A DNA stretch of 64,000 nucleotides from Camelus dromedarius. Lineage: Eukaryota. The notes under the pieces are model-generated. The model was not told the DNA's origin. It searched no databases and worked only from the letters and a program-made list of their open reading frames with translations. Below are positions 3,440-63,500 of the stretch, one piece after another. A program made the translations under genes and the position numbers. Where the stretch lies: positions 58,034,001 to 58,098,000 of the forward strand of contig NC_087436.1 in the NCBI RefSeq assembly GCF_036321535.1, read 5' to 3'. Positions within the stretch are counted from its first letter, which is position 1. Each line of letters begins with the position of its first letter.

Positions 3440-3887
3440 GATGGGTGTTGGAGGCATTTCTGTAGCCTTTTGTCAAATAACTGTGCTTTCCAGAAGCCAA
3501 TGGCTTGCCATGGACAGGAATTTGTTCAGGAAGTCCCATAGAGAAGAAACCAGATATCCAACTGAGACACCCATCCTCTAGGCAGAGCAGTAGACTCACT
3601 GAAAAGCAGAGAGAAAACTACAGAAACTTAAAAGACGCAGGTACACTAGAAAGCAGAAAAGTGCTGGATACAAGAGGAAGAACAGCAACTTCTCTCCTGC
3701 TTGTGAAATGATAAGTGATTCCTGTATTAGCCAAACATTCAGAATAGACACTGGCTGGTACTCAGATATTGAATCTTGGCATAGGCTTCTAGTCAGCCGA
3801 GAGTGGTGCACAGGTGACTTACTGAGAATGACAGTGGGCACCATCATCCTAAGTGGGTCACCCAACATACTCAGCAAAGACCCTTTA
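3440..3887 (-). pseudogene. Pseudo-exon with hydrophobic TM-like segments
   Basis: gttccttttccag| acceptor opens ~96 stop-free codons ending LLFFLLYPALFCFLVYLRLLSFCSFLSAF. A second ORF (VSLLLCLEDGCLSWISGFFSMG) overlaps at 3596-3599, or a gtgagt donor is used there. Confidence 0.4.
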
Positions 3888-4419
3888 CTGGAAAAGGAAC
3901 ACTGTTTAACCTATTAGCCTACATATCATCAGCATATATTTGCAAACTCTGATTTCCAGGTTAAAAATTTTTACTCCGTTTCTTTCCCAGAACTTCACCT
4001 CTGAGCTGAATTAGAGAAGTCTTTTGGTCCCAGAGTCTTATTTTCTCCTTAAGATAGATGAAGTTTTTGTTTTTCTTGAAGGTACATCTAAATGTTCTAG
4101 GGGAGAAATTACAATAGCCAACCAGGGTGATCCATAAGGTCTGTCTGGGGTGAAAAATCATTGGAAAAGATAGTTTTTCAGTCATCTAGATTATTTAAAA
4201 ACAAGGATTTGACCCTCTGGGAAAAAGTGAATTTACTTCCTATAATGACACTGATCTAATGTTAAATATTATTTTGATTAAATTTTTAGTATAAATCTAT
4301 GTTAAGTACAATAATTCTGATTGTTTTTGAGGTGAGGTGAAGATTTAGTGAATCAGCAATGGTACAAAACCAATGTAGTTCAAATATAATGATACATAAG
4401 CAACTAAATGTCTTTTCTT

Positions 4420-5205
4420 TTTCAAATACTATTTTTTCAGAACCAACTTAGATTTAGAGAAATTTTAAGGAGATAGTATACAGAGGTCCCATATATCCCA
4501 ACTCACTTTCTACAATTATTAACATCTTATGTTAGCATAATACATATATTACAATAATTAATTAACCAATATTGATCCATTATGATTAAGTCCATACTTA
4601 ACTTAGATTTCCTTAGTTTTTGCTTAATGTCCTTTTTCTGTATTGTGATTCGAACCAGGACACCACATTACATTTAGTTGCCATGTCTCTTTTGGCTTCT
4701 CTTGGCTGGCAATTTTGCAGACGTTCCTTATTTTTGATAACCTTGACAGTTTTGAGGAGTAATGGTTAGGTATTTTGTAGGATGCCTCATTACTGGAATT
4801 TTCTGGGATTTTTTAATTCATGATGACTTGTTGATTATTAGTTATTGGAAGGAAGACCAAAGGTAAAGTGTCATTTCCATCACATCATGTCATCCTATCA
4901 AGTGTACATACTACGTACATGATTTATAACTGTTGATATTGGCCTTGATCACCTGATTGAGATGGTGTTTGTCAAGTTTTTCTACAGTGAAGTTACCCTT
5001 TTCCATGCTTTAGACTTTGGAAGGAAGACACTATGTATCTCACACATTTCAGGAGTGGGAAGCTATACTCCCTCTGCTTGAGGGTGGAATAGCTACAAAA
5101 TTATTTGGGGTTCTTCTACTTGGGAAATTTGTTTCTTCTCTCCCATTAATTTATTCAATCATTTACTCATCAGAATGGACTCATGGGTATTTATTTTATA
5201 CTTTG
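4420..5205 (-). mobile_element. L1MC-type (L1MC4-like) 3' region
   Basis: Typical text: aatgtcctttttctg...ccaggacaccacattacatttagttg...ccttgacagttttgaggagta. Confidence 0.75.
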
Positions 5206-5740
5206 GCAATGAAATTTTAGTAGATTCGATTGCAAGACTTAAGGCAAATAGACAAAGCTAAACGACTTAGTGTGAAAACACTTGCATGGTGCATTCTAAA
5301 TGAATATGATTCAGACATCCCACTTGTCAATGAACGATGGAGATGGAAGATGAAGAGGTCTTTCCTCATAAAAAGAGTAAGGAAAATCAGTGAATTATTC
5401 TTATCGAAAACAACTATAATTAAAATGTTAGTATAGGGTTATTCCTCAGAATATTCTTTCAGATACTAAAAGATCTTGAACACAATTTATAATTTTTTAA
5501 AATAAGTATTTAAATCAGCTTCTGAAAACTTTCTAAATCCTTTATATATATATAAAGGAAGGTGGCTTTAAATGGTTATGAGAGTCTCAAATGTTGAAAT
5601 TCCTTCAGCATTCATTTTTTTATCTTGGAAGGTTTCACTATTTCTCTTACTCTACATTGCCCTTTAGGTGAAAGAAAAATGTGCATTTCAGAAGAAATTC
5701 AGTGGAGAATCCTGGCATTTTTATCACAAAAACTAGATAC

Positions 5741-5846
5741 CTGAAGAATGACTGACAGAGATCATTATTGGTCATCACTGGTCATGGCTTAAATGTGCCA
5801 AAGATGTAATATCGTGAGGGAAATAAAGAGAGGAACATGAATGAAA
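5741..5846 (-). pseudogene. Candidate pseudo-exon
   Basis: tcttctaatatttgcag| acceptor and CAG|gtatct donor, 106 nt, hydrophobic translation. Confidence 0.25.
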
Positions 5847-6170
5847 CTGCAAATATTAGAAGAGCATTTGACAGTTATAGCAAAATTTGATTTACTTATT
5901 TAAAGTTTATGACAGTGATTTTTTATTACACAGATTCAAATATACTACAAATGTCAGTGCCTTTTCTGATGACTACCTTATATTCTATAAGACTTCTAAG
6001 CATTCTACATGTGTTTGTATCTTTGACTGCCACTTTTAAAATTAAACATATTTTTTCTAAGACACTGAGTAATTAAGCCTGCTCTTCTCAAAGTTATTTT
6101 ATGTTACTGATACCATACTAAATTCTAAAATATTACAGCATTATGCAGTGCCCAGAACTTCTTTGCTTAC

Positions 6171-6328
6171 GAAACGACTACTCATAACATGGAGTTCACG
6201 GCATGGTCTCCATTTCTTCAGAGTCTATATAAAAACATACATGTGAAAGTAGAAAACCAAAGTATAAGAGAATAATGTTTCAGATAATAAAGTGGTAGGC
6301 AGAATCATTCATAGAATCATCTCCTGAT
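6171..6328 (-). pseudogene. Pseudo-exon encoding a TM-like helix
   Basis: Strong pyrimidine acceptor ...cacctttacag| and TTC|gtaagc donor, 158 nt, phase 1-0. Joins the previous exon in frame. TLFSYTLVFYFHMYVFI; 2 stops. Confidence 0.45.
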
Positions 6329-6478
6329 CTGTAAAGGTGGGATGAGAAATGAGAAAGAGCTGGACAGTGTATAGTGCGTAGTATACTAAGTGAAATGAAG
6401 TCAGTAAATAGAAGTTTTGGACCACTGTGATATAACGGAAGAGACAAGCCATGAACTTGGGGGAACCAAGACACTCAC

Positions 6479-6659
6479 CATAGGAACAGATGTGACAGGA
6501 TGTCAAAGCTAGAGGCACTAGGAGGAAAAAGATGAAGATAAAGACAAAGAAGGCACATAGACAAGGCTAGCCAGACACACGTCTGGAACATCACAGCCCT
6601 TTATTAGTTTGTAGATTTCCGTGGGGCTGTGCATGAGGCCGTGGAGTTATGAGAGATAC
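6479..6659 (-). pseudogene. Pseudo-exon encoding a TM-like helix
   Basis: ttcttctgcctgtttacag| acceptor and ATG|gtgagt donor, 181 nt, phase 0-1. PCLCAFFVFIFIFFLLVPLALTSC; 2 stops. Confidence 0.45.
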
Positions 6660-7216
6660 CTGTAAACAGGCAGAAGAATTAAATAGACTCAAAATTTGCA
6701 ATCTCAGATTTTCTTTAGCTTGTGTATACTGCCTTTTGAGCAGCAGCAGCACAGAAATATCCTTACTGTACCACCTTCATGGACTTCAGAAAAATTCAAC
6801 AGTAGCAAATACAGTCTTTCAGTAACTGTAAAATATGAATGTGCATCTGCTTAAATTATTAGCTACTTTCTCTCCATGTTCATTAGCATTTATTCAATTA
6901 AAAATCTTTTCTTAGTGTCCTAAAGACATAACATAATTGGTGCCCAGGAACTACTAATGTGAATCCTTAGGACATATGCTGCATATTCTAACTTTCCGTG
7001 ACACTAATGATACCTTGCATTGATCAGAAATGCCCTAGAGCACGCACAAGGTTCACATAAGCTCTATCAGGCCACAAGGTCATCATCTACATGATTATGG
7101 CTTGAATACATTTAAGTGATCAGTAATGCACTTTGTAAAAATGCCTAGGTTACCTCAGAAAGTTCAGTATATGCAAGGAAAAATGAGTTAATTAACCAGG
7201 ATGCTTAAACAGCAGT

Positions 7217-7284
7217 AACAACAAAAACCTCCAATTTTCTCTTTGATTTTTCAACAACAAAAACCTCCAATTTTCTCTTTGATT
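7217..7284. repeat. Perfect 32-bp direct duplication (period 36)
   Basis: aacaacaaaaacctccaattttctctttgatt at 7217-7248 and 7253-7284. Confidence 0.95.
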
Positions 7285-9058
7285 AATATAGGCAATGCAA
7301 AGCCAAATATCATTTTAGATTAACCACAGACCAACTTGCACACTTATTCCCGATGGTGCCTGTTGCACATGCTTTTCAAAAGATTTCTTTTCTCCTATAT
7401 TTGAAAGTGGTTCCAGCTGAAGTTATCACAATTAACCAGGGCAGAAGTAAAGCTGTATCCATTCTGATGGGTTTTGGTCTAGTTGCTCCTGCTGATAGTA
7501 ACCATGTACCCTTTCCATTGTTACAGTGTGAAGGAGAGGAACAGGAAAAAACACTGTCTCTAAGATTTACTTCTGACTATGAGAATCCTGCTAAACTTTA
7601 AGGCCAAATTCATGTACCAAAATGTCTGTTACCACCTTGGCCTAAAATTACCCTTCAAATCTTAGACTATGTGCACCAGTCAAAACCCTTTTATTTCTTA
7701 GTTACTGCTGTCATTATTAGTGATGTTTTCTTTAATGTCTTTGTAATCTATATGGAGAGGGTTCACGAATGTATTTCTTTTGTTCTTTCTACTTCCCCAA
7801 GAAGAGACTATGCCAGCACTTCTAATACAATTACAGGATCCTAGAGGTAGCAGGGACTTGGGAGGTCACTTATCCTGTCTTCCTCTTACACAAACAGTGA
7901 AATTAAGTTGCAGAGAAATTTGGTGTTTTGTAGATGCTCAAACAAGTGCTAATCTTCAAATTAAAATAAAAAAGGGATGTTTACCTATACTCTATCAACT
8001 ACACTGAAAAACTAAGGAATGTTCCAGAGTTATGCAATAAGTAGAACAGCTATATATTTTAGGGTCAACAATCTATAGACATAATGCTTTGTACTTTTCC
8101 TACTGTGAATTCTTTACTCATTACTATCTTTAGTTAATTAGATTGGCAAATTTTATCCAACGTTATCAACTGTTTAGATAAAACAAAGGTGAAATCACTT
8201 ATTTCTTACAGAATAAGAGCTGTGTTTTTTTCATTTTCCCAGTTATTTACTATAATTTCATGCCAATACTATGAAAGTGTTAAATTGCACCACCACTACC
8301 CAGTAATCAGAGCCTAATGGAATGCAGAAACTCCCCAATAGAGTGGGACCACAGAGAAATATGAGAGTATTGCTAGTCATAAACAAAAGAAAGTAAATTA
8401 TACTTCATTTCGGTGACAGCTAAAGGCATCTAAAAGCTATGTTTGCTATGTGTTTCGGTTAATTTATTGGTTCTACTGGTTAATTTCCTTATCTTTTTAT
8501 GATTATTTGGAAAATAATAAAGATATTTTTTCCCTGAAGATAGTGATTGTATTTTAAATGAGTTTGATTTCCAGTAATTAAGTATATAATAATTTTCCTA
8601 GAGTATCTGTTTCCATACTAAAATGCATTAGTTTTTTTAATAAGGATTGTTTTACCAAGAGACATAAGAGTAGAGAGTGTACAAGTGACAGGAGAGTACG
8701 AGACTGAATTATGTGGCACTGTGTGTAAATGAGCATCTTGGCAGCATATATAATAGAGAGCGGCTGTGCTGGGATCAATCTGCACTCCTATCATTGGTAG
8801 CAGTATAGAAGATATTTTGGTGTACCAGATATGCATTCCTAGGAGGAGAGAGGTGTTTTAGATCCTAAGAAGGCTAATAAGGCCATCTTGTTTGAGAGGC
8901 TAATGGAGGAACCCTAAATGATCCCCTGAAATAGAGATGCATTGCTTGATCAAAGTAACCATGGGTGAGAGGTCTCTAGTGACAGGAATCTCCCAAAAGC
9001 ACACAGCAGTTCCCGAGGCAGAGAATCATTCTTTAAAAGCTTCCTGGCCCAGTGGGAT

Positions 9059-9584
9059 TATGGTACATATTCTCCAAGGTGGCCCCCAATTATTCTCATC
9101 TCCTAGTAATTATGGCCTTGTGCTATTCCCTACCCTGGAGAGAACGCTGACCTTATAACTTGCTTCTAGTAAACAGAGTACCGATTGTCAGGATGTCACT
9201 CTGGAGGTTAGACTACAAAGAGACGATGGCTTCTGTTTTGAGCTCCCCTTTCATTCACTGGCTGTGAGAGAAGCCAGAGGCCACTTTGTGAGCTGCTCTG
9301 TGGAGTGGCTCATGTGACAAGGAACTGAAGTTGGCTTCATCCAGCGACTATTTGGAGCTGTCAATGGCAATGGGAGGGAGTCTGGAAGTGAATTCTCCCC
9401 GTGTAGCTCAGCTAACAGATAGATATCTTGATTGCAGGCTTGGGAGAGACCCTGAGCTAGAGGTCCAAATGAAGCCAGGCCCAATCTACTAACCCACAGA
9501 AACAATGAGATCATTAATTTTTTGTTGATTTAACCTGCTAAATTTTGGGATGACAGCTTACATAAAAAGCGGACAACTAATACA
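9059..9584 (+). mobile_element. MaLR LTR (MLT1E/F-like)
   Basis: acttgcttcta, cccacagaaacaatgaga and terminal aactaataca. Confidence 0.8.
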
Positions 9585-9600
9585 GGGTTAAAATCAAATT

Positions 9601-9830
9601 TCGAGATTTGCAGATATACTAATATATATAAAATAGATAAACAAGTTCATATTATATAGCACATGGGACTATATTCAATATCTTGTAGTAACTTATGGTG
9701 AAAAAGAACATGAAAACCAATATATGTATGTTTATCTAAGACTGTAGCACTGTGCTGTGCACCAGAAATGGATACAATATTGTAAAATGGACCTACTTCT
9801 ATTATATATATATATAATTTAAAAAAAAAA
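9601..9830 (+). mobile_element. 5'-truncated young L1 3' end with poly-A and TSD
   Basis: Artiodactyl/camelid-type L1 tail. TSD aaaatcaaatt (9590-9600) / aaaaccaaatt (9827-9837). Confidence 0.85.
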
Positions 9831-10439
9831 CCAAATTATGGGAAGCTAGTGCAAGTAACTGGTCTTATATTGTCCTCCACTGTCCCCCACCTGAATCCTG
9901 GTAGAACTTGAGAGACAGGATGAGAAGAAGGGAGAAAAGCTTAGGCTGCCTTTCACACATAGATCTGAGCAGGGGAGAGGAAAAACATTGTCTACTGTAT
10001 CTAGTTACAATTTTTTGATACAGTCTTGTACTGGGAATCTCTTTAATGAATGGTGATTATATTAGTTCTTAAAATGATTGTAAGAATGCATACTATTTAA
10101 GGATAAACTGAAAAATATGTCTGCCATATTTTCAAGGATGGGCTGGGAAGATAACCTTCACTGAATAAATTTTATAGAGAGACTCAGAGGCCAGAATAAA
10201 GATACATTTTTTATTATGTTCTAAGTTGAGTTTGTTTAACATACTGTGTATGCACTGTTCTGGTGTTTTTTTCCATTGAAACTTTAGACAGAGTGAGTTA
10301 TACGCCTTGGTATTCAGTGGGATAGAGTTTGCCCAGGGAAGAAATAAGAAATGTAATATAATGTAAAGCCTGCACTAAATAAAGGTTACACATTTACCAA
10401 GATATGTTTGGTGAGTATATAAGGAAGCATTGTTAGGAT

Positions 10440-10749
10440 AGAAAGCAGTTCAAACCCAACAGCCACGTAGTATATAAAAGTTGCTTTCAATGCAATGCAA
10501 CATTGCAATGCATGCAGCAATGCAACAACTGTGAAAGCTTTCCCAAGCAGAGTGAAATATCGTTGTATTGTGTGCCAGGGATTGGATTACTACTATTACT
10601 GGCTTGTTTATTCTGAGTTTTTAATCCTTCAAGTCTGTAGCACCAAAGCTTGGTTTTAGACAAATACAATGCGGACATACAGAGTTTAAGTACAAACAAC
10701 TCAAACCACACAGGACGGACTGACTGCCTTGCCTGTTGTCTTCCATTAA
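10440..10749 (-). pseudogene. Candidate pseudo-exon
   Basis: gttttcag| acceptor followed by 86 stop-free codons (NGRQQARQSVRPVWFELFVLKLC...). No clear donor. Confidence 0.3.
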
Positions 10750-10859
10750 CTGAAAACTACCTTTTTTTGTCCTTAGAGCTTTTTGTTTAATTTGTCTAAA
10801 TCTGCTTTGATGTTAAATGTTACTGAAAACATGTTATGCTGCTTCATTCTTCTTCTCCT

Positions 10860-11172
10860 ATGTTGTTTCCCTGCCTGGATATCCCTGTACACCTTCCCAC
10901 ACAGCATCAACCCAGCAGACCGCTAGACATTCCTCCAGACCAGCTGAAAGGCAGCTCAAAGGTTTTCTCCTCTGTGAAGACAAGCCTCCAAGGCAGAACT
11001 GATCATTTATCTTGCATAGGTACTTTGCATATTGCCATTACAGTACCGATCATAGTTTATGACTATGTTTGTCTATGTTCAACATTAATCACAATAAGCA
11101 GAGGGCTTGGCACATAGTCGTTTCCCCCAAACATGTATGCTGGGCCAACGTAAGATGAGTGAATTAATAAAT
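10860..11172 (+). mobile_element. L2 3' end fragment
   Basis: gcttggcacatagt...gaattaataaatg, L2 tail pattern. Confidence 0.5.
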
Positions 11173-11346
11173 GGCATAAAATGTATAGACTCTTCCCTGA
11201 TTTCTTTGTTTCTGTCTTCCTAATGTGTGCAAGTACAACTCCATATAGGGTCTTATCAACCAGAATAGGGTGAAAATTACTTCAATTAATGCAGTCTAAG
11301 ATTTTGTGAACCTTTTTAAACTAGCAGTCAAGGTGGTTAGTCTGTT

Positions 11347-12045
11347 TGTTCAAATTAATGTTTAGGACCTTTGAATTTATCCTTTCCTAAAGTGAGCTCT
11401 GGCCTTTGCCCTCAGCTAGCGGAGGTGATCACTAGACCCTGGGAATGTGATACCTGATTGGAATATCTTTGATTTCCTGGGGGCCATGGGTCATGTTGGA
11501 TAGACTGCCAATATGATTTTAGGGTGAGAGTTGGTCATATCAGATAGTAGTTAGGGTGGGGACTGACCATGCCAGAAATAGTATGATTTAGAGCCAGAGC
11601 TTTGGTCCATGCAACTAGACCTCTTGAGATCAACCACGGGGACAATCAATCATGCCTACATAATAAAGCCCTAATAAAAATTCTGGACATTGAGGCTCAA
11701 GTGACCTTTTCTGGATAACAATTCTCTATGTACGTTGCCTCACATCAATGCCAAAAACATAAGGCTGCCTGGAATCCACAAGGAGAGGACAACAGAAGTT
11801 CCATGTTTGGTACTTTCTTAGACTCTGCCTTAAGAGTTTCTTCCTTTGGAGGATTTTATCTGTATCGTTTCTCTATAATAAAGCAGAACCAAGAGTATAA
11901 AGCTTTCTGTGAGTCCTTGTAGCAAATTATCAAACCTGAGGGAGGTTTTGGAAACATTCTGAATTTGGAGTTGGTGTCAGAAGTGAGGGTAATCCTAACG
12001 TGGACTGTGGTCCCTTTAACTTCACAGTTGGCTATAACTTTCCAC
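11347..12045 (+). mobile_element. Solo LTR, MER21C-like
   Basis: caatcaatcatgcctac, gtgagtcctt...aaattatcaaacctgaggg and gttggtgtcagaagtgaggg. Confidence 0.75.
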
Positions 12046-12178
12046 AAGGGCAAATATGTGTGTGATACTGGATATAGATATTTAGATGAACATGAATCAT
12101 GGCGAGATAACAGTTTTTTTTTCCACTTGACACAAGTTCTAAGGATTTGGTGATGTCAATTAATATCAATGTCATATT

Positions 12179-12376
12179 CATAGAAAACAATCTTATGGCT
12201 ACCAAAGGGGAAAGGGAGATGGGGAGAGATAAGTTTGGAGTTTGGTATTAGCAAATACAAAATACATATATTATATATAAAATAAACAAGGTCCTACTAT
12301 ATAGCCCAGGGAACTATATTCAATCCGTAATAAACTATAATGGAAAAGAATATACACATACACACACATGTGTGTG

Positions 12377-12415
<39 letters not shown>

Positions 12416-12487
12416 TGAATCACTTTGCTGTACACCAGAAACTAACAGACCATTGTAAATCAACTATATGTCAATTAAAAAAAAATA
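12179..12487 (+). mobile_element. 5'-truncated L1 3' end with TSD and internal (TA)16
   Basis: cagggaactatattcaa...gaatcactttgctgtacaccagaaact. TSD aatgtcatatt at 12168-12178 and 12488-12498. Confidence 0.9.
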
Positions 12488-12799
12488 AATGTCATATTGT
12501 ATAACAAAAATAAGACCTGTAGTGGCCTTCAGGACAGAAAGACCTGAAAGAGCTGATGAACTTGGAAGATATTGTTCTTTAATAAAAAGTGTGGTTATAG
12601 CAGCTGTACCTCAACCCATGGGTGCCAGCCTATTTTTATAGCTTAAATTTTTGGTCATTTCTGAGAAACGGGACTCAATTTCTAAATTATATTTAGCATA
12701 AATTCTATCTTTCAGCCTCAATATTATACAATGCTTTCCTTCTGTGGACATCTCCTTAATAAGAGAAAATAAAACTATGACTGTACCTACAAAAAAAGG

Positions 12800-13858
12800 C
12801 AAACATTAAATGTCATGTAACACTGGATTGCTTCACATAACCAAAGTTCCCAAGCAAAGTTAGCTTATTTGCATTCTGACAGACAACATTAATAGTTTCC
12901 AATAAGAGTAAGAGAGGAAATACCTATTTTACCCTGTAGGATAATAAGAGGCAAGATATAATTACTTAAGAACATGCGTGAGAATGCTTTTAGGTTGCTT
13001 TGCAAAAAATCGTTTCAATGTCATGTTTTTGATTTCTTTAAAACTCTGCTGGTAGTCTGAATGCCCACAGAAAAGTACCCTTACATTAGTGTTTTAATAT
13101 TCAGGTCTGTGATCCTGCCCAAGATAAACCTGGACGACTAGTTTAGTTCTATCTTCTCTCTTTTTGCAATGACTCCTGCAAACTAGCTCAAAATCAGTCT
13201 TTGGTTCTGGCCCTGACCTCTGAAACTTCCTATTTCCATGTTCCAAGAATAACTTATAAATGAGGTGATATTATCAGGGCTACTTGGTAGCTGAAAATAG
13301 CCCCACATTCATAATCATAAGCTACACTATGACAGGACTTATGAGGCAGGTTGAACTGAGAGATATTTTTACCAAGGTGCTTTAGGAAGTTCTCCTGGCT
13401 TTCTGAGATTCCTTACATCCTTACTGAATGACAGACCACTGGAACCCCTGGAATTCCTCACATTGCTTTAGATTAATCTCTTTATAAAACTTGCTACTCT
13501 TCAATTATGCCTAGACTGAAACACACAGAATCTGCTGGCAAATTTTCAGATGGAACTATATAACAGCTATAAAAAATGGTACAAAAATATTTGTAGAATC
13601 AGAAGAGTTATTTTTCTCCTTAAACTGAGTGCAACCTTAGTCTACTTAAAGCCAGGATGTCCAAGGTGTCAGGTACTGACTACAGCTCTCAAGAGAAGGC
13701 CCATTGAGAGGCGAAGTTCTCAAGATAGCAGGTCCTAAATTATATCCACAAAAGAGTGGATCACATAAAACATTTGGTAGCAGGACTTTTAAGGTCACTA
13801 AAATTCCATGATAACAAGTGCTCATAACAAAGAATTCCACAACCTCCCTTTCATCTCC
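12800..13858 (-). pseudogene. Large pseudo-exon with about two TIR-like units
   Basis: ttttag| acceptor opens 70 stop-free codons. Then DSTNIFVPFF (13600-13571), KICQQ, FISYSW (13260-13243), VQVYL, RVLFCGHSDYQQS, YILPLIIL and LLGNFGYV in order across frameshifts. Confidence 0.55.
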
Positions 13859-15668
13859 CTAAAATATCTAAAAGATATAAGATAAATTAGTTCTCTTTCT
13901 CTCCTGTCCTCCCTTCTCTTATCTCTTATCTCTCTCCCTCTCCTCTCTAGTCTTGTGCTGCAGTTTTTTTGTCTTACGAATTTTCAGAAGTCTATTGTTA
14001 AAAGTTCAGTTGATGGATGTATTATGCCTTTGAATGATAAAGCTTTTGGCCAGTGGACTGTCAACTCCACAAGAGCAGTGACCTCGACTGTTAACCATGG
14101 CCCCCAATACCTAAAACAAGACCTAAAGCTTGACAGGTGCTAAAGAAACACTATCAGGAACAAGGGAAGGGAGGGAGGAACAAAAATAAGGAAGAAAAGA
14201 TTTGAATTACAAAACATTCATGATTAAATGCCAGAAAATAGTAATGTATTTTATAGGCTTCCCTTTAAAGAATCATTGAGCCAAAGCTTAGCATGGGTGC
14301 CAGAAAATGGAGAGAGAACAGAAACTGTCCTCTGTCAAGAGCAGAGGTGTTACATATGTAGTACTAAATGTCTTCCAAATTTGTGTTTGATTTGAAGATG
14401 AAAATGCCCTGCACGCTTCTCCAGCTGTGTTCCCTTCCAGCACTGGGACACACAGTGCTCTCAAGAGCAGCTGTCAGTTCATGGGCAGTTTTAGGTGCAT
14501 CTCTAAGAAACAGCAACCTTGTACATGAATAACACATGTGTTTTCCTGGCCATGCCCTCCCAGTAAATTCTCACAGTTATTTTTTTCTTAACAGTGGGCA
14601 GAAGAAGTGAGGGAATTTTTTTTAAAACAACTTTTCCAATAATTCACTTTTTGTCATATAAATAATCTGATAGCTTTCATTACACATTTGAAAATGTTAA
14701 TGAACAGTGGTCTCTTCTGTAAAATAATTATACATAATTTGGTATTCTTATTTTATTATTTTTCTTGTTTTTCTAATATAGCAGATTTCATTAACCCTAC
14801 TTCCTCATCCTGAAATATAAACACTGTATCTTTTAAAAGATGACTTGTTTTTAGCATGAAAGAATACCTAGGACATTGGTACTTTATATGTTTTTTTATT
14901 TATAGCTATAGAGGGATATTTTAAAAAGCAAACATTGCTTAGTAGTATCACAACCACAATATAGAAATTGCTTGTAGTTTTAAAATATATTACTATATAG
15001 TGCCAATAAAAAGGAAAAAAATAATCCATATTATCTAAGAAGTCACGTTTTGAAATATTCAGTTTACTTTCAAATTCAATATCAATACTTTAGTGAGTCT
15101 ACTATATTAAAATATTAGTAAAAATGTATTTATAAAATATATAGAAATAAAAATATATTAAAATGTATTACATCTCACAGAGAAAGGAGTAGGTTTTAAT
15201 CTGAGAAAAAAATCTGAAGGTAGTAAATCTTGAATTACATCTTGAAATTGAAAGAACAGTCAAGTTTCTCTTTATTTCTATTTGCCCTTTCTTAGTTTAA
15301 AACTATGAGTTGGTGCTTCCTTGGAAAGTTCATAATTTATTTGCTCTGTGCCTCATTTTAATCATTTGTAAATGCTTCCCTCTCCACCTAATGGGAAATC
15401 AGGATGTGATATTTATGAAGATTAATAACACAATATTAATCTAAAATTTTGAGAAATTCCACTCATCTCAGTTAATCTCTTCACAAAATAAGATCACTGT
15501 ATTAGCTCATTATTCTCCGGCTCTAATTATATTTACGTGCATGAAATTTTTCCTTAAATAATGGCTTCATAATTTTTCTAGGCTTCAGAAATTGAAAGCC
15601 ACTGTTTTTCAGCTGCATCATTTATATGTGTTATTGTTACTGGGGATTCTCTAGGTGGGAGCAGAGAG

Positions 15669-17830: not shown

Positions 17831-17936
17831 TTGAAAAATGTCTTTAATTCAAAATTCATCTGATGAAAGTTTCTCTTTCTTTGGACCCTGTAGTCCTTTT
17901 TTTTTTCCAATTGAATGGGTCACAAAATCCTCAAAT

Positions 17937-52810: not shown

Positions 52811-52978
52811 CTGATATAGTTTTGTACAGGAAAGAAGTCATCGTAGTTGGGCATCTCAGCAGACTCCTCCTTATCCCCGTAAATATGCAGGGAAGGAAAC
52901 AGTACCACTCACCATTGTCAACGTGCCTCCTATTCCCTTCAAGAAGGTTTCGACATAGAATATTGGAAAGTATCATTT
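52811..52978 (-). pseudogene. Pseudo-exon (TIR alphaC/betaD-like)
   Basis: ttgtag| acceptor and CAG|gtagaa donor, 168 nt. One frame is fully open (MILSNILCRN...); others give YFPIFYVE and VVLFPSLHIY...SAEMPNY. Four CpGs retained. Confidence 0.45.
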
Positions 52979-53679
52979 CTACAATTTTAGAAAGACTCCC
53001 CAAAATATAACAGTCTGCTTATCCTCTCATACAAAGTTGTTTGTTTTGTTTTGTTTTTAGGAATGAGATTTAAAATGTCATTTAGGTTTAATTTCTAACT
53101 TTTGGGTATTTGTACTCGGATCTAAATTACTTGCAGGTGCATCTCCCATTTTCCTAATACGTTTCGGTTGTTTTAAATTAAGTTTTTATTTATAAATTAT
53201 CTACAACCTTCGGCAAGCTCTAAATTCCCTTTTAAGAATCTCAGACCCACAAATGTGTAGCAAGTCTAAGAAAAGCATTTCCTCTATTTTATAATTGTTG
53301 TCTACCCTACACTTAGTACATTCTTTAATTTTGTTTACTGCTCATAAATAAAGCCAACCTGAGCAATTAGATCTTTATTCTGTTTACCCTTTGGGTAGTT
53401 AAACAGCATTAATTATTTGCATGGAGATGATTCTCTTAATTTCCATGGTGTGGTTCCGTAAGTTAATGGTATCTAAATTATACCATATTTATTCCAGTTC
53501 TTGATTTCATACTTATTGTCAGTTTGATAGCTTACTGTATGGGTTTGTCTAAGATTCACAAATGCAGAATACAGTAAAGTTTTGACTGTTTTTTTTTACT
53601 AGATAGTTCTGAAAGTCTGTATTTCTGTAAAAAATTTTCTTATCTCTTTAAATACAGTCATTACTATTACAAACTATGA

Positions 53680-53900
53680 TTCTAAGAGCATTGAAAGAGT
53701 CTAAGTTTTAAATTTAGACAACTGGGGTTTCACTTCCACTCTGTGTGACTTGGTCTAATTCCTTAATATTTATGAGTCTCATGTATTTTCAAACTACAAA
53801 AAATAAGACAATACATACTTAAATTTCAAAGTTGTTATCATTAATAGCAAAAATATATAAAATATTCAGCATAATTCCTGGCACAGAATAGATAATCAAT
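53680..53900 (+). mobile_element. MIR (further fragments at ~58450-58590 and ~62000-62170)
   Basis: ctgtgtgacttgg...ccttaat...cctggcacaga. Confidence 0.55.
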
Positions 53901-55628
53901 ATGGTTATCACTGTCATCATTACCTTTTTCTTCATAATAGTCATTTATTACAGTATTACTTAATTTGTGCTGAAATACTTTGAACTGAAATGTATTTAGA
54001 CTCGTCTTTTTGAGAACTGTTGCTCTGTCTTATTTTTTCACTTTTACGGAAAGCAATGAAAACCATGTTTATATATTTCTAGTATTCATAACCAAACCTA
54101 TTTCTAGGGCTGTCATTCTACTGTTCTTTCAATTAAGTCACAGATGTTTACACACACTCTGAGTCTGTCCTACAGTTGGTCTTCATTTATTTTATTTTTC
54201 TTTTGTTATTTCAAATTATTATGATCAGGAATGTAATCATTGCAATGTGAATATATTCATACTTGAGATTTGCTATTTCCAACTCACTGATAATATGACA
54301 GTAAGTTTTCTAAGATCATTTCTACTATTTTGGATTTAAATATCTTTGCTATACATCATTAAGAAGGTTACTTTTGAGAAGATTAAAGTAATTACTTAGC
54401 CCATTTCCACTCCAAGTGCTTCCTATCAAATGTCAAATGTCTATTTTGGTTGGCTATTGTGAAAGTATTTTCTAAAGCCAAACAAGTGCTACATTCTCTC
54501 TTTACAGGGAGATTTCAGTACATTTCTCTCATCTAGGTTTTTCTATTTTAGGTTCCTGATGCCTATTTCTTAATAAAGTGACTTTTTCATAAACTCTCAT
54601 GTAATTATGAAACATGTTTGTATGTTCTACATTTCTTTACTATAAATTGAATAAAATACATAGGATGTTCATTTTGTCTTAGATCAACTGAAAAAAACAT
54701 TATTCAGTACAGAATGTAGCACCTGCAAGTCGTAAGTACATGTCACCAAAATAAATTATGATGAATTGTGTGAGACTCTGGCTCAAAATTTATCAGGTTA
54801 ATATTATGGTACTCTGGTGCAGCAGATGCTGGCATTGGTGTATAAATTATTTGGGGATCATAAAATGGTCACCTTTTATTAAAATTAGTTCTGACCTGAG
54901 ATCAAAATTTCAGACCAGAACAGCTGTGTTGATAAATATTTAATTAAATATCAACTGTACATTAACTTCCACAGTTTAACATCCATCAGATCTTTTTTTT
55001 AATCAGAATTTGAAATCCTTGAGAAAGTCTAATTTATATATTAGGCTATTACAGTGAAGGAGTCACAATAGGATTCATACAGCCTGCATTGTCCTCATGT
55101 CCTTCTCATTCTCTTTTGTGTGATACTTTATATGTATGTACACACATATGTATATACATACATGAATATATACATTTATCCATACATAATATGTATATAT
55201 ACACACATATAAACAAACATGTAAAATAGCAATGGGAATATTAAATACACTTTAAGCTAATTGTTTATAAATTGAAGTAGAGACAAATGCTATATTTAAT
55301 AATGTTATTATTCAAGAGTAAATGCATAATAGTCAGATGTTAACTGTGAGACTTTCTCTATATAAATCAGTTACACTTTTTCTCTATAAATATCCTTCTA
55401 ATTCCCAAATAGAGTGAATGCCTTATATGTTCCTTGTGACCTTTAGGGCGTTTCACCACTATACTGCTTATCACATTATGGCTACAATTTGTCATTTTAC
55501 TTTTTTATACCTCCCACAGATTTTGAGTACCTCTGAAATAGAGACGATGACCTAAGCCATTACCTAAAACAATTATTTTTATTTCTGGTGTTGTCTATAT
55601 ATTGGATTATCCAGCTTAATAAATGCTA

Positions 55629-56182
55629 TGATAGGCAACATCAAGATGACTCCCAATGATCCTGGTTTCTGTTTGTGTAATGCCCTCTCCTCAAGTGAGG
55701 GCTGGATCCAGTGACTTGCTTCTAATAAATGGAATATAGCAGAAGTAACAGGCTGCCACTTCTGAGATTAGGTTATAGAAGACTCTGGCTCCTGTCTTGC
55801 TTGCTCTTTCTTGCTGTCTCACTTGCTAGCTCTGATGGAATCCAGTTGCTATTCTGTAAACTGCCCCATGGAGAGGCCCTTATTGGACCTTAGCCACCAG
55901 TCAGCAAGACCTGAAGCTTTTAGTTCAACAGTCTATGAGGAAACAAACCTGTCCACAACCACTGGAGTGAACTTGGAAGTATATCCTTTCCCAGTGGAGC
56001 CTTGGGATGACTGTAACCCTCACTGACACCTTGGATTGTAACTTTGTAACAAACCCAGAGCCAGAGGAACCCAGTTAAGCCCCTCTTGATACCTGACCCA
56101 CAAAAACTGTGAGAGAATAAATGTTGTTTTAAGTGGCTGCTTTTTGCAGTAACATGTTACACAGCCATGGATAACCAATACA
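55629..56182 (+). mobile_element. MaLR LTR (MLT1E/F-like)
   Basis: gtgacttgcttctaataaatggaatatagcagaagt...gataaccaataca. Confidence 0.85.
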
Positions 56183-57294
56183 AATAATTACTGAATAAAT
56201 GAATTGATTTGCCAATTAATGTAAAATTTTAAGTCTGTAACACAATATGCACTCCAGAACAAATGTCAATCACAGAAGAATCTTAATCATCACATGACAA
56301 AGCACAAATCATAAGGTTTATGTGACATAAGCAGATATAAAATAAATATTGCCTTCTCTTACAACAATCTTTCTCAGTACTTCAGAGTATTTGGATTTTA
56401 AGTTTCAATGAAAGGGAATTGGAATTCTCCAAGTTCTAGAAGTATATTTTTGTCTTAATTTTTGGAAAAAACATTCATAGTGAAGTCTAAATGCAATAAT
56501 TAATAAACATGCATACACATACATATACACATATATGTTATATATACACATATGCAAAATAGCAATAGGATTTATTATTAACAACAGTTGTGGAGTGATG
56601 AGAACCTGTGTTATGGCAGTTTCACTGAGTGCACATAATAAAGACTAGACTATAATTTCTCAGTGAAGACACTATATGCAGAGTTATCCTCAGGTCTTGT
56701 GCTATGACTATTAACACTGACTATGCCTTTTCTAATAATGAGAAATTTCAAGCCTTAGGTCATTTTCTATTACGAAAAAACTTGAACAAATCATAGTATC
56801 TGAGAGATTCAGATTCCTTATTTATAAAACTAATATAATAATACTCTCCGTTTAGAACCAAGAAAGCTGGCACACAGTGATTACTGTTAAATAAATCAAT
56901 TCTAAATAGACTTGAAAATATCTTTGCAAAGTCTTCATTCTTTGTAGAGTTTATTTTGAAGCTTTACTTAGGTAAACTTTGATCAAGGGCATACATTATT
57001 TTCTGACTAACAGCTGGAAGATCTCAGGTTCTAGGGCTAAATTCACGACCCCCCCACCCAAAAAAAAAAAAAAGAAAAGGAAGTAAAGAAAAAAAGAACC
57101 CTATACCACTCAAACTTTCTGTCAATTCACCAAGTCCCCCAAATTTTCTATAAACTTTAAACTATATTAAACAGTGAATCCTTGAAGACAGGGACTCTAT
57201 CTTTGTATTTCTATCTTATCTATAAGGATTTTAGACATGCAGATTATTTTACTTTTATAAAGTATTCATGGTATTTAGCTCTGCTCTATTATTT

Positions 57295-58225
57295 TCTTTT
57301 AAAGTTTTTATTTTGAAATAATGTTAGGCACAGAAAAATTCCAGATATAGTACAGAGAATTCACATATAATCCTCATTCAACTCCCCTTAATGTTAACTC
57401 ATATAATCTTAGCACATACATATGTTATGGGAATATGGAAATCACTATGGAAATCAGGAAATTAACACTGGCACAACACTGTTAAAGCAGTTTTCAAGGG
57501 ATGAGAAGTGGAAGCCCTGATATGCCGCATTTGCCAATTTCCTTGTGTTCTCTCTTCCACCATGGCCAAATTTCCTACCAATACAACTTTACTAAGCATG
57601 AACTTGCACAAAATCAGCTCAAGCCAGCTGGCTCAAGCCAGCCCCAGCACACTACTGTTATTAGCTAAAGTACAGATTTTATTTGAATTTCACTTATTTT
57701 TTACCAAACACCCTATTCCTGTTCGGACATCCAATCCAGGATCCCACATTACACTTTGTTTTGGATTTCCTTAGTCTCCTCTAATCTGTGACAATTCCTC
57801 AGATTCCTCTTTCTTTTCATGATCTTGACAGTTTATAAGTAGTGGTCACTGAATCTATTTCAATTTTAGCTTCTCACAATTAGATTGAGATGACGTGGAT
57901 TTGACAAGAAAATACCACAAAAGTGATATTGTGTTCTCAAGGGTATATAATATCAATATGTTTTATTACTGATGGTATTAACCTGGACCACCTGTTTCTC
58001 AGGTTTTTCCACTGTGACATTATTAGTCTCCCTTTCCACACGATAAATATCTGGAGAGGGCGGATAATTTGAGGCTCTGCTGCTATCTTGCTATCCTGAT
58101 TCTTCTCAAAGGTGGCGCAATAATGTTAGCATCCATTAGGAGCTCTTAACCTGCAACAATTATTATACAGTGGTGTATGCTAATGATAATACTTTATTTT
58201 TCTACTTTCTTCTACATTCATTTCA
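57295..58225 (-). mobile_element. L1MC4-like 3' region
   Basis: ttattttgaaataat...tagtacagagaattc...ccaatccaggatcccacatt...ccttagtctcctctaatctgtgac. Confidence 0.8.
57488..57657 (-). mobile_element. MER63-like element nested in L1MC
   Basis: aagccctgat...gcatttgccaatttcc...ccaccatggcc...ccagcacactactg interrupts the L1 text. Confidence 0.7.
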
Positions 58226-59240
58226 GTTACAACTTCTTAACATTGAAATATTCTTCTGTTTAATGTCTACATAGATGAATTAAGTAGAAATGAATCAAGT
58301 CTTGTTCCCTCTTGAAACTCATACTGGCCAATTAGTCTCTGTACTAGAAGGACACAGTAAAAAAGGAGTAGAAAGGCTTTTCCATTAGAGTTCTGCTTAT
58401 GTTAATGATAAGAGAAACAGAAATCAAAACTGGATTTGAAGAATAATGACCTGCAGTGGAGTAGACTGGAGTTATCTTTCAATAACTCAACATGTGACTT
58501 TGGGCAAGGAATATAACCTCTTTGAGTTTGTTTTTTCATGCAAAATAAGAAACTTCAATTATGACTGATAAGGTCTCTTTCCATTCAATGCAGGTGTTGT
58601 GAGTTTTTTTCATAATGAACCAAAATTTAGTGTGATAATTTACACTTCACGATAAGCCAAACATACACATATAAACAGTGTTACCCATCCATTTCTCTCA
58701 TATGTGCTTGTTTCCTTTCTGAATCACTGGAAATTCATACTGTTCCTCTAGTACATTGTTTTTCAGCCACCATAGCACAATTAATAATTATTACTTGAGT
58801 GTACAGATCTCTATCTGGTTAATTGCTTATCTCAGTACCCAGAAAGACAGGCATAAAGTACACCACACACATATATAAATTAAGGATATATATATGTAAG
58901 TATATTTGTGTAGCTCCTTAATATCTTGACTTATTTGCTGAATTAATACCCCAAATAGACCTTTATGAGACTCTCCACTGAAAGTATTTTCTTTCTTATT
59001 AATATAAATAGTATTTTCCCTAGGGTCTCTTACTTTTGGGCGTGTCAAATTTCATCTTGATATTGGCATGGATTATAAATATAATCTTTTCCTCTTCAGA
59101 TACTTTTCCTGTGAGGATAACAGATTTGAAAATTGGGGCTTATATATGACATTTAATCCATAGTCCATCAACACTGATCAATGCAAACCAGATTCAGGAA
59201 AGTGATCCATGTCTCCAAGCAAATATAAAAATCAATTTAC

Positions 59241-59582
59241 CTGCTTCATCAATGCATGCCTTGGCTGTGCTACATCTTTACTTTTCTCTCACTCTTTGAA
59301 AGCTGCTCATCAATTATCTGCATGAAAATGTAAGGATTAAGCAGATTGTGATTTGAGCTGCTTTGATGAAAACACATTATGGATGCTTTCCTTTTCAGAT
59401 GTAGAAACTGTCACAAAAATAATCTATGATAATATTTCAGTCAACTTCTGTAATTGATGTCTAATTTCTATAGGAAGTTCAAACTCTGTAAATATGACAT
59501 GGTTGACTGACAACATCTGACTCACTCACGAGTGGAGTATTTTATCAAATTATGTTGGAATGTTGCAGTTCAGCTTTGGATA
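59241..59582 (-). pseudogene. Pseudo-exon, weakly TIR-like; may extend upstream to ~60400
   Basis: ctttttag| acceptor and CAG|gtaaat donor, 342 nt. Fragments EFELPIEIRHQLQKL, FIKAAQITICL and STAKACIDEA lie in different frames. 7 stops in the phase-0 frame, so the frame evidence is weak. Confidence 0.35.
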
Positions 59583-62500
59583 CTAAAAAGAGTTATATGT
59601 TAACCCACTGGTGGAAAAAAGTCTTCAAGAAACATTGCTTTTATTAACCTTAAAAATATAAATAAGACAAGTAAATCTCTTTCCAGTCATGGGTTATACT
59701 TTCAGGAAAAAAAGAGGAGGAGAGTAAAAGGATGAATGCAGATCAAGAAGATCATATAAAATGATAAAGAAGATAATTTTCCCCTTTTTGGATTAAATCA
59801 TCCCTTCTTGCTTGCAAGACTATATTTGATTAGAAAATGAGAAATCTTCATAAGCAATCATGTACTATATATTCATAAAAAGCTTTTTGATGATTCTCAA
59901 TACAAAAATATTAATAAAACATACCAAATAATGTAAATGCATCATGAGGCTACCTTTACAAAATCAAAACTAAGTGGAGTACTACTTTGAATTTCCTTTA
60001 TCACATCAAAGTATCCATGTCAACATGGCTCTATTTTGCATGCTAAATAAATCACTTAATTAAATTCATATACTCCACTCCATGGACTCCTGGATAAAAC
60101 TTGAAACCACCTTTACTTTTCACTGTTGGGAGATTTCCCTTCCTATCTCTGAGATGTTTTGCTTCCCACTCCCAGAGATGAAGCAGGCTGACCCAGAGCG
60201 TCCATTTCCTGCAACTTAGAATACTTGCTTCTTCTCTGTTTTGAGGTGTTCAGAAGAAGATGTACACTTTAACCTTTTGCATCCCTAGAAGATTAATGAG
60301 TCTTACTAGAGAGTCTTGATGAGTCTTTGTTAAATTGAAAGTCTGAGATTATCTGTAGCCTTGATATATGGCTCTCCTTAACACCTATTATTACTTTATT
60401 TCTCTATGCAACATGTTAGCCAAAGAATTATACTATAGCAAATTTTAAATAAAGGGAATCCGAATGATTATGGAGGCAATATGGAGAACTGAATGAATAA
60501 AGAAAATGTAAAAGCAGGCAGAAGACTATTGTAAAAATTCAAGTGACAGATGATAACAAACTGAAATAAGGCACTGAGGATGAGAATGACAAGAGGAGAG
60601 CAGAAGAACCTGGATTTGGGAACACATCAGATGTGGATGTTAATGAAATGGGAGGGTCAAGAATGATTTTGATGCTTTTAGTCCTTAGGTTATTCAACTG
60701 AGTTCACATAATTTTTCAATCACTCACATAATATGGTAACTGTTAAAATTAAATACTCATAGATTAATTTGAGCTCACCTCAACTTTTTCAATCTAAATC
60801 GTTATAAGAGATTGATACATAATCTTCATACTACTACATTTATAGAACTGGGAGTAGTATACACTTTGCAATATCAGACGTTTATCACTAATGTTAACAG
60901 CTGATGTTACTGTGGAGAACCAGAACTTGAGACCATCTAGTTTGGGAATTAGCCACATCCTTTTTTCTCCCTCTCATTTTGACCATTTCACAGTTCATTA
61001 TCACATCCAACAGAGGGAAGGAATGACAGGAGAGTAAAAATGAGACTCCTACTTATCACAGAGAGGTGTTGATTCCTATGTCACCTTTTTTAACAGTACT
61101 TTACATTCTGAGGATACTTTTTTTGTGAAAACTGAAATAAACTAAACTTTCCCAACATCAGCATTGTCTGAGCTAGGCAAAGACAGCAATCTTTACTTCC
61201 ACCCTGCAAAATTCAAACCATTTACAGTTGCTGATCTGCATAGATGTGAGTTTTCACAGTTAAACAAAGGTTTAAAGTGTGAATAATTAAAAAAATTCAT
61301 TTTATTATTAGTCAATACATTATATTGATTATCTGTGTTTTTAGAGAATATATTCCCAAGAGTTTCCTGAATTATTAAGACCATGACTCTCCAGAACTCT
61401 TGGCAATCATCATATGCATTTATATACCAAAAGCAACAGTAATTATTCCTGTAAATCTAGCTTCAGCTCACTTTATATTATTTGTTGCTGATGCAGACAC
61501 TGAGATATTTTTAATCCATAAAGATAAAACACAGAAAGGTCTTGGGAATGAGGGTTAGTTGTAGACTTAATCTTTCTGCCCTTGATTAAAACTTCTGAAC
61601 TATTGATTCTTTCTATACATATAAACAGACTACATCTAATAAAAATTCCAAGAATTACTCAAATACACAATGGACCCTAGTGTTACAATGAAATAATTAT
61701 CAATGATACATAGATACTAACTTGGATTTATGTGAGACTCAGTGGTTATGAGATTACAAGGTGTCTTCATCAATGACTTGGGCTGTAACTTTCATTTTAT
61801 GAAAAATGGACTAAATGATTATTATACCATTGGTATTGTCAGTAACTTAGGCCATGTACATACACACATGCTCAGACAAAACGACCAAAAAACCCTTGCT
61901 AATTTATAATTGCTCACCTGAAGGATTAAGAAAATGATGCTAAAACTAAAGAAATAATTGAGTTTTGAATATCATTGAGACATTGGTAATGGTAATGGTA
62001 AATCTTAGAATCAGACAGGCAGGAAGTACATTTTGTTTTAATTACACCTGAGTAATTTACTTGACCTCTCTGAAATTCAGCTTTAACATAGAGATAAAGA
62101 TACTTATCTTGGAGACATTGTGAAAAGTAAGTGAAACAGGTGGGAACAGTGTCTTGCTTGTTTAAAGCAAATAATACATACTGGATAACTACCTACATAT
62201 TTTGGGATAACTGACTACATATTTCAATTATTTGCCATTCTTTAATAATGCTTTGATTAAATTTATATTATGTTCGAAATAATTAACTCTTTTCTAATCG
62301 CACATAATTCTGATACTTTCAGTGCTTATACCATTGATATAATATGTATGAAGAGTAAGATTTTATTTTTCTAGGAGTTTGAAGTTGTTTTGCACATTCG
62401 TGGTATTAGGAAAAACAAAGCAAATAAAAAAATCTCACTTGTAAAAACTAGTTCTGACTCCTAAAGAGGCTGTTTGATAATGCAAATCTCTCCTACATGA

Positions 62501-63069
62501 CAACAAATACATAGTTGGTGCATATTATAGGAGTTTAATTTTTTTTCATTTTTTTCAATATAATTCAACTGGAAAGAGGAAGGTGTCTAAATGTTGCTTC
62601 TGTTGCCTAAGCACTGCATGATTTTAAAGCGAAAAAACATGATCTCTATAATAATAAAAATTACCTTCAGTGCTTTTCTAGAGCAACAGTATTGTACCAA
62701 TTAACTATATATAATTTAAAACTATTTATTAAAGACTTTCTGAACCCCTACTAAGTGCAAATACTTAGTTGACATAAGTATGTGCACATACCATTTAAAA
62801 TTTTTATAGAGTTACTATTTTCTCCAGCCCTATCTAAATATATCAAGAGCCTACAAAAAATGTTAAATAAAACGTAAAAATGAAATAGTCAAAAAAAAAT
62901 TGGGTTCTAGATGTTATCACAAAAGTATTGTAATTAACATGCTCAGAAAATCATATTTTTATCAAGGTCAACATAATATATTTAAGGTAAAAATTAGTAT
63001 GGAAGTAACACATAAACTAAGAAAATCACAATCTCAACAAACAAATACAGATTACTGCTGAGACAAAGC

Positions 63070-63500
63070 TCTTTTAAATTACACTGTTGTGATAAAGCAG
63101 ATTAAATCCAGAAACAGGATGCTGCCTGCTAGCATTCCTGCTGACCACTTTAAGTATTGTATATGGGACTAAATTTTGTAGGCATTCTGGCAATGGCTTC
63201 TTACAAGTACCAGCTGAGCTAAATTTGCTAAATGCAAATCTCTCTAGGTAACAAAATGCAGAAGCAATGTGAGCTGGCTTGTGCTTGCACTAATTTCAAA
63301 GTATGGTACATGAACCCTTGTAGTGGAAAATGCAGAACTATGGTTTGCAAGTTGGGTTCACACTTGATATTAACCTTTCTGTGCATCATTGTGGGATTTG
63401 CAGTTTTTGAATTTCAGTCTGAATTACATAGTAAATGAGGTTGGACATGTCATTACTCAATGGCACAGTCACACTTCGCTTTTTGCACCCAGCAACAAGA
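63070..63500 (-). pseudogene. TIR-like pseudo-exon segment
   Basis: Minus frames give VQAQASSHCFCILLP, KKPLPECLQN and WSAGMLAGSILFLDL (63147-63103), resembling TIR_2 betaC, betaD and alphaD-betaE. Boundaries unclear. Confidence 0.4.

What the first reader, a model, noticed from the sequence alone, without database searches (positions are those of the whole stretch)
3440..63500. Fossil multi-exon gene with tandem TIR domains and a multi-TM C-terminus
Seen: many non-repeat blocks are bounded by minus-strand AG/GT signals. Blocks at 63.3, 59.4, 52.9, 42.1, 37.4, 30.3 and 13.2 kb independently give TIR_2-like motifs, and blocks at 6.6, 6.2 and 3.7 kb give hydrophobic helices. Known: the familiar mammalian TIR proteins (TLRs, IL-1Rs, MyD88, TIRAP, TRIF, TRAM, SARM1) each carry one TIR, and SARM1-type/bacterial TIRs are NAD+ hydrolases. 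Inference: this is the remnant of a large multi-TIR, possibly TIR+multi-TM, immune/signalling gene lost in this lineage and perhaps intact in non-mammalian vertebrates. The ORF track misses it because of stops and frameshifts.
Basis: partly seen in the sequence, partly recalled or inferred. Interest (0 to 1): 0.85.

Follow-up and report, generated by a model that had tools for sequence, protein, structure and literature searches.

The report
Unproven TIR fossil inside GRID2 intron
This stretch lies inside a huge intron of the brain glutamate-receptor gene GRID2; the claimed dead immune gene with many TIR domains could not be shown and most of its pieces look like chance, though one piece carries a faint TIR-like signal worth checking in reptile, bird and amphibian genomes.

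Summary
The window lies wholly inside the ~415-kb intron 2 of GRID2 of a placental mammal, on the GRID2 strand. The named blocks exist, are mostly GC-raised, and those tested are single-copy. But against 600 kb of neighbouring DNA, their splice signals, hydrophobic runs and TIR motifs are at chance level: the seven 'TIR' blocks together give Fisher P 0.33 and 0.24 with two purpose-built TIR profiles. No Pfam, PADLOC, NCBIfam or PDB TIR match and no intact homologue was found. Simulation excludes seven TLR/IL-1R-family TIRs and a recently dead gene, not an older or more divergent one. One block keeps a real hint: a 174-residue open frame from another mammal-like contig, orthologous to 37.5-38.0 kb, scores 7 bits on a vertebrate TIR profile (5 of 5000 shuffles reach it), next to the window's best TIR_2-type match. 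Odds: ordinary intron 0.48, the proposed multi-TIR fossil 0.27, a lone TM-TIR fossil 0.2. The scan's notes held no earlier record of this locus. Non-mammalian genomes, not available here, would decide it.

The parts
1..64000 (-). Part of GRID2 intron 2 (about 415 kb). The downstream GRID2 exon lies ~29 kb below window base 1, the upstream one ~322 kb above base 64000
   Evidence: PDB phmmer of the downstream exon: GluD2, E 6e-60; upstream exon located and translated; both have splice pairs, ranks 5 and 27 of 1735
37483..37995 (-). Best candidate fossil: hydrophobic run followed by a faint TLR/IL-1R-like TIR reading; here broken by 6 stops and 2 frame changes relative to the open frame P0001
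   Evidence: against:
37372..37470 (-).
63146..63316 (-). Named block, GC 0.40, weak splice pair (5.1/5.8 bits), TIR-like words by eye; tile P 0.095 and 0.67
59150..59520 (-). Named block, GC 0.34; tile P 0.047 (vertebrate TIR profile) and 0.17
52600..53000 (-). Named block, single copy, donor 10.0 bits at 52913; tile P 0.78 and 0.58
41880..42340 (-). Named block, GC 0.44, single copy, acceptor 10.1 bits at 42340; no TIR signal (P 0.82; no score with the TIR_2 profile)
30144..30448 (-). Named block with a strong donor (12.2 bits), exon-likeness rank 46 of 1735; no TIR signal (P 0.35, 0.33)
13000..13450 (-). Named block, single copy, FISYSW word at 13260; no TIR signal (P 0.78, 0.44)
6479..6659 (-). 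Most exon-like named block: 181 bp, acceptor 12.2 and donor 10.0 bits, GC 0.46, one strongly hydrophobic 19-mer (KD 3.04); rank 18 of 1735; no family match
3450..3887 (-). Named block, GC 0.45, single copy, 104-codon stop-free frame with one hydrophobic 19-mer (KD 2.18); no family or Atlas match

Best explanation
The stretch is ordinary DNA of GRID2 intron 2: unique or anciently repeat-derived sequence that is transcribed as part of the GRID2 pre-mRNA, spliced out and never translated. The TIR-like words, AG/GT sites and hydrophobic runs are look-alikes picked from three frames of AT-rich DNA. The minus strand is favoured because it is the GRID2 sense strand and is T-rich, which yields more polypyrimidine-AG sites and more F/L/I/V/C runs. 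Shown: position in the intron, strand bias, chance-level scores. Inferred: that nothing coding ever lay here.
For: GRID2 exons on both sides, same strand. Minus strand has more acceptor-like sites (4.31 vs 3.84 per kb at 6 bits) and more TM-like 19-mers (1.88 vs 1.16 per kb) over the whole region. Splice sites at GC-block edges 0 of 13 vs 16 of 110 in flanks. Simulated TLR/IL-1R-family TIRs would look this weak in under 2% of trials even at 0.45 substitutions per site. No TIR match in Pfam (0 of 21 frames; 0 of 11 sequences), PADLOC (0 of 15), NCBIfam (0 of 7) or PDB. The blocks do not resemble a profile of the best block. phmmer over 1.84 billion proteins gave only 2 short gene-caller products on small contigs.
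Against: The window's minus strand ranks 1st of 20 bins with the vertebrate profile (18.6 vs 18.0), though through an unlisted hit at 48.7 kb. The tests lose power for distant TIRs at 0.35 substitutions per site or more. The exhaustive search used one frame, in which only ~56 residues match the frame of P0001.
Confidence: 0.48

Rival explanations
1. One reading: a same-strand gene nested in GRID2 intron 2 that coded several divergent TIR domains with membrane helices, died early in mammalian history (0.35 substitutions per site or more) and is intact in some non-mammals. It would have worked as a membrane-anchored TIR scaffold or NAD+-consuming signalling protein (inferred from what TIR domains do; nothing shown).
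For: GC-raised single-copy blocks; 37-kb block with two adjacent TIR-like readings; single-frame TIR-profile matches of P 0.013-0.06 at 59.4, 63.3, 49.3 and 37.8 kb among 33 frames; exon-like pairs at 6659-6479 and 30396-30144; simulation does not exclude old out-of-family TIRs (chance of looking this weak 0.2-0.6 at 0.35-0.45).
Against: No joint enrichment of the seven blocks, no splice-edge enrichment, no cross-similarity of blocks (seen only for its first 61 rows), no homologue in three word-based searches (all weak by the tool's own warning) or the exhaustive one.
Confidence: 0.27
2. Only 37.1-38.0 kb is a fossil: one exon or an old retrocopy coding a membrane helix and a distant TLR/IL-1R-like TIR, possibly followed by a second TIR. 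The other blocks are chance. The aligned frame lacks a glutamate at the WCxxE column, so if real it was more likely a scaffold than an NADase (inferred).
For: P0001/P0003 reads hydrophobic run, ISYSW, a PxKWI..SSQK segment like the BB loop and alphaB, and VIWW like box 3, and stops soon after. Score rose from 5.0 to 7.0 bits when IL-1R-family TIRs were added to the profile. The window copy has 6 stops and 2 frame changes relative to it.
Against: Four profiles were tried; the bacterial TIR_2 and mixed profiles give nothing (985 and 1406 of 3000 shuffles). HHalign probability 2%. No Pfam or PDB hit. Atlas best score 0.79, unnamed. No TLR/IL-1R locus of the genome is a clear parent. Seven frames of 174 codons or more occur in 664 kb of this DNA, and the database holds many host species.
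Confidence: 0.2
3. Some blocks are exons of a fossil or non-coding transcript of another kind (not TIR), or conserved regulatory elements of GRID2.
For: Single-copy GC-raised blocks; one strong splice pair at 6659-6479; the window is less repeat-masked than its surroundings (7.9% vs 15.3%).
Against: No family match for any block; no Rfam match; splice pairs not enriched.
Confidence: 0.05

Closest known systems
GRID2 (glutamate receptor delta-2) intron 2
   Same: The window lies between two GRID2 exons on the same strand.
   Different: No nested gene is described there in the papers searched; the PhyloCSF supplement names GRID2 only for an alternative 3' exon (PMC6886504).
TLR and IL-1R family receptors (membrane helix followed by one TIR; PF01582)
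   Same: The 37.5-38.0 kb orthologue reads as a hydrophobic run plus a faint TIR of this type.
   Different: Score 7 bits on my profile, no Pfam match; no ectodomain seen; seven such TIRs are excluded by simulation.
Invertebrate ecTIR-DC proteins and twin-TIR Toll-like receptors
   Same: They show that animals have TIR proteins with unusual or repeated layouts: ecTIR-DC said to be widespread in invertebrates and apparently absent in vertebrates (PMC6321704, passage); Twin-TIR type with two tandem TIRs (PMC8181103, passage).
   Different: No sequence of these families could be fetched, so no comparison was run; no similarity is shown.
Intact single-exon TIR + membrane-helix gene of this genome (L002; same kind as earlier finding e1-7276204)
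   Different: One TIR, intact, on another contig; its tail does not match the window.
Unitary pseudogenes such as human TLR11-13 relics
   Same: A lost TIR gene left at its syntenic place (PMC7075850, passage).
   Different: Those are defined by an intact orthologue; none is known here.

Membership tests
TIR domain (PF01582 / PF13676) | Match to the Pfam models over their cut-off | tested here: not met
   0 of 21 frames, 0 of 11, 0 of 5 with the control L002 at 70 bits; the window is not among the genome's 19 TIR_2 or 32 TIR matches
TIR domain (PF01582 / PF13676) | Score above local background on purpose-built TIR profiles, frameshifts allowed | tested here: inconclusive
   Only 37470-37372 stands out, 6th in 664 kb; P0001 5 of 5000 shuffles on one of four profiles; other named blocks at chance; low power at 0.35 or more
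TIR domain (PF01582 / PF13676) | Alpha/beta sandwich fold | tested here: inconclusive
   Single-sequence AlphaFold2 of P0003: pLDDT 58, pTM 0.34, two helices then strands, not TIR-like; too poor to use
TIR NADases (SARM1 type, bacterial) | Catalytic glutamate in the WCxxE helix (motif recalled) | tested here: inconclusive
   No glutamate at that column in P0003; a WYL*E word at 63.2 kb is by eye only
Multi-TIR protein | Several TIR repeats in one chain, in order | tested here: not met
   No joint signal; no cross-match from the best block; power limited for old or distant TIRs
Unitary pseudogene | Intact orthologue at the syntenic place in an outgroup | not testable with these tools
   No vertebrate genomes held; protein searches gave none
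Unitary pseudogene | No intact paralogue in the same genome | tested here: met
   Six blocks single-copy; three not searched singly
Unitary pseudogene | Disabling stops and frameshifts relative to a coding frame | tested here: inconclusive
   6 stops and 2 frame changes relative to P0001, but P0001 is not shown to be coding
Unitary pseudogene | Exons bounded by splice sites beyond chance | tested here: not met
   0 of 13 vs 16 of 110; 5 pairs vs 3-16 per bin
Ancient transposon or conserved non-coding element | Match to a repeat library or a conservation track | not testable with these tools
   No library; local self-mask covers 0% of the blocks but also missed an L2-looking control; no Rfam match

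The most novel reading that the evidence does not exclude
GRID2 intron 2 holds the remains of an undescribed vertebrate gene, nested on the GRID2 strand, that coded several divergent TIR domains and membrane helices, was lost early in mammals and survives in some non-mammals: a vertebrate counterpart of the invertebrate multi-TIR proteins.
Probability: 0.27. Interest if true: 0.75.

Novelty: not a real feature. Interest (0 to 1): 0.3.

Why it matters
If the fossil is real, vertebrates once had a TIR signalling protein with a layout unlike TLRs, IL-1 receptors or their adaptors, mammals lost it, and its intact form could be found at a known address (GRID2 intron 2) and tested for NAD+ cleavage or adaptor recruitment. 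If not, the case shows how readily the T-rich sense strand of a giant intron yields splice-like, hydrophobic and short TIR-like look-alikes. The address makes the deciding check a single lookup in non-mammalian genomes.

Tried and rejected
Family scans of X-read frames: Pfam (one weak UNC-50 at E 0.086), PADLOC (43), NCBIfam: no TIR. PDB sequence searches: nothing relevant. Word-based homologue searches: 37-kb block, 0 of 290 candidates, 409-2000 aa; TIR of L002 among long proteins, 1 of 101, an insect Toll; mixed TIR alignment, 7 of 8000, plant and bacterial-type TIR proteins, search swamped. Atlas: P0001 0.79 and the 3.6-3.9 kb frame 0.81, unnamed, chance level. Metagenome scans for orthologous host DNA: none. 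Viral-contig scan with a mammalian TIR alignment: none. Codon-bias segmentation tracked GC only. TLR-only frameshift profile: named blocks at chance (52, 55; the reversed-sequence control used a wrong background and was dropped). Self tblastx: noise in the 61 rows seen. A 9.4-bit TIR_2 hit 33 kb beyond the window reads as L1 and a 65-kb hit as L2 (recalled repeat types): rejected. The 48730-48590 hit, top for the vertebrate profile in 664 kb, is not a named block and is unexplained. Tail of L002 against the region: no match at the TM blocks. AlphaFold2 single sequence: unusable. Six RNA or RNA-guessed runs hold 0.23-0.36 of the words of 36.5-38.5 kb, but no reads were laid, so this is no evidence of expression or splicing. 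Earlier scan notes: nothing on this locus. Papers PMC9260508 and PMC3565204 (passages): not relevant.
Full report
Setting. The window is G000:C1:58034001-58098000 of a 2.3-Gb genome in 171 contigs, with TLR-like loci on the same contig: a placental mammal (camelid-like by a recalled SINE; not tested). A frame 29 kb below the window on the minus strand is a GluD2 exon (PDB phmmer E 6e-60; GluD1 2e-38). The preceding exon lies at C1:58420347-58420502. So the window lies inside a ~415-kb GRID2 intron (intron 2 by recalled numbering), and the proposed gene would be nested on the GRID2 strand.

What is really there. The named blocks exist. Nine of ten have GC 0.38-0.46 against 0.336; 59.4 kb has 0.34. 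Six were searched in the own genome and are single-copy. A local self-mask covered none of them, but it also missed an L2-looking control, so old repeats are not excluded. There is no Rfam match. TIR-like words can be read by eye in several blocks.

Splice and membrane signals. With textbook weight matrices, 0 of 13 unmasked GC-rich blocks in the window have both a minus-strand acceptor and donor of 6 bits at their edges, against 16 of 110 in the flanks. An exon-likeness ranking puts the two true GRID2 exons at 5 and 27 of 1735, the 6659-6479 block at 18 and the 30.3-kb block at 46; the window's minus strand has 5 pairs of 24 or more, within the 3-16 range of 20 bins. Stop-free hydrophobic 19-mers occur 1.88 per kb on this strand and 1.16 on the other, so three helices in 3.5 kb are expected.

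TIR tests with libraries. No TIR match came from Pfam (0 of 21 frames; 0 of 11; 0 of 5 with a positive control at 70 bits), PADLOC (0 of 15), NCBIfam (0 of 7) or PDB sequences.

TIR tests with own profiles. I built a TIR_2-type profile from 110 of 167 bacterial and viral loci (123 had an open frame of 100 residues or more); it finds all 10 mammalian TIRs at 28-63 bits. I built a vertebrate profile from 29 sequences, 28 from this genome plus an insect Toll. With frameshifts allowed, only 37470-37372 stands out among the named blocks: first in 264 kb, sixth in 664 kb. The window's minus strand ranks 4th of 20 bins with the TIR_2 profile and 1st of 20 with the vertebrate one (18.6 vs 18.0), the latter owing to an unlisted hit at 48730-48590. 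In single frames against 2105 control tiles the seven named blocks give Fisher P 0.33 and 0.24 (for the second, 42.1 kb had no score and was left out), and the window has no excess of high tiles.

Power. Neutral decay of eight real TIRs shows that seven TLR/IL-1R-family TIRs would look this weak in under 2% of trials up to 0.45 substitutions per site. TIRs outside the profile's family would do so in 2-8% at 0.25, 20-36% at 0.35 and about 60% at 0.45 (frameshift-aware version). So a young fossil and a TLR/IL-1R cluster are excluded; an old or distant one is not.

Homologues. phmmer of one frame of the 37-kb block over 1.84 billion representatives gave 2 hits at 67-68% identity, both unnamed products on contigs of 0.6-3 kb; I take them for the orthologous DNA of other mammals called as genes (inference). 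Three word-based searches found no intact relative (0 of 290; 1 of 101, an insect Toll; 7 of 8000, plant and bacterial-type TIR proteins). All are weak tests. The phmmer query shared only about 56 residues with the frame of P0001, and P0001 itself was not run exhaustively.

The one hint. P0001 (174 residues, open) matches 37995-37483 in two window frames; the window copy has 6 stops and 2 frame changes relative to it. It reads as a hydrophobic run, ISYSW, a segment like the BB loop and alphaB of TLR2, and a box-3-like end. It scores 5.0 bits on a 10-sequence mammalian TIR profile (36 of 5000 shuffles, 20 of 2833 natural chunks) and 7.0 on the 29-sequence one (5 of 5000, 4 of 2833). Against it: nothing on the bacterial or mixed profile, HHalign probability 2%, Atlas 0.79, a poor non-TIR AlphaFold model from one sequence, no clear parent among the genome's TLR and IL-1R loci, and seven frames this long in 664 kb of local DNA. 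A profile of this sequence finds no sister block in the window. After allowing for four profiles I put it near P 0.005 (my estimate): suggestive, not proof.

How it most likely works. Most likely it does nothing as a gene: it is transcribed within GRID2 pre-mRNA and spliced out (position shown; absence of a past gene inferred), 0.48. A lone membrane-helix-plus-TIR fossil at 37-38 kb gets 0.2.

Literature. Nine searches showed no paper on a TIR gene or pseudogene in GRID2; most subscription papers are not held. Seen: passages of PMC7075850, PMC6321704 (supplement list), PMC8181103, PMC9260508 and PMC3565204 (not relevant); a term search of 9 supplement files of PMC6886504, with GRID2 once, for an alternative 3' exon, and no TIR or Toll (files 1 and 8 not searched). 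The rest were search listings only.

Verdict. Observation partly confirmed; interpretation unproven and mostly unsupported, but not refuted for an old, divergent gene. The novelty label follows the best explanation. Interest 0.3. The useful result is the address, which turns the question into one lookup in non-mammalian genomes.

Noticed in passing
L002:1351-2652 (+), G000:C8 near 83.49 Mb: Intact single-exon 433-codon frame with an N-terminal TIR (TIR_2 70 bits, the genome's best TIR_2 match) and a hydrophobic tail; not a TLR. Same kind as earlier finding e1-7276204.
   Followed up: partly
   Followed up: partly
window 49100-49300 (-): Further TIR-like words by eye (FLSHS, KILKALE..YVLLS); tile P about 0.09 on both profiles; the FLSHS word overlaps a polypyrimidine tract.
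   Followed up: partly
window 41716-42141 (-): 141-codon cysteine-rich stop-free frame, the longest in the window; no Pfam match.
   Followed up: partly
G000:C14:47769721-47770041 (-), L226: TIR match with one in-frame TAG: a possible TLR-type pseudogene.
   Followed up: no
G000:C1:13588516-13588716 (-), L218: Partial second TLR2-like TIR about 9 kb from the intact one: possible truncated duplicate.
   Followed up: no
L018, about window coordinates 125800-126700: LTR-like element (type recalled) in GRID2 intron 2 with the strongest splice pair of the region on the GRID2 strand; described only.
   Followed up: no
   Followed up: no
   Followed up: yes
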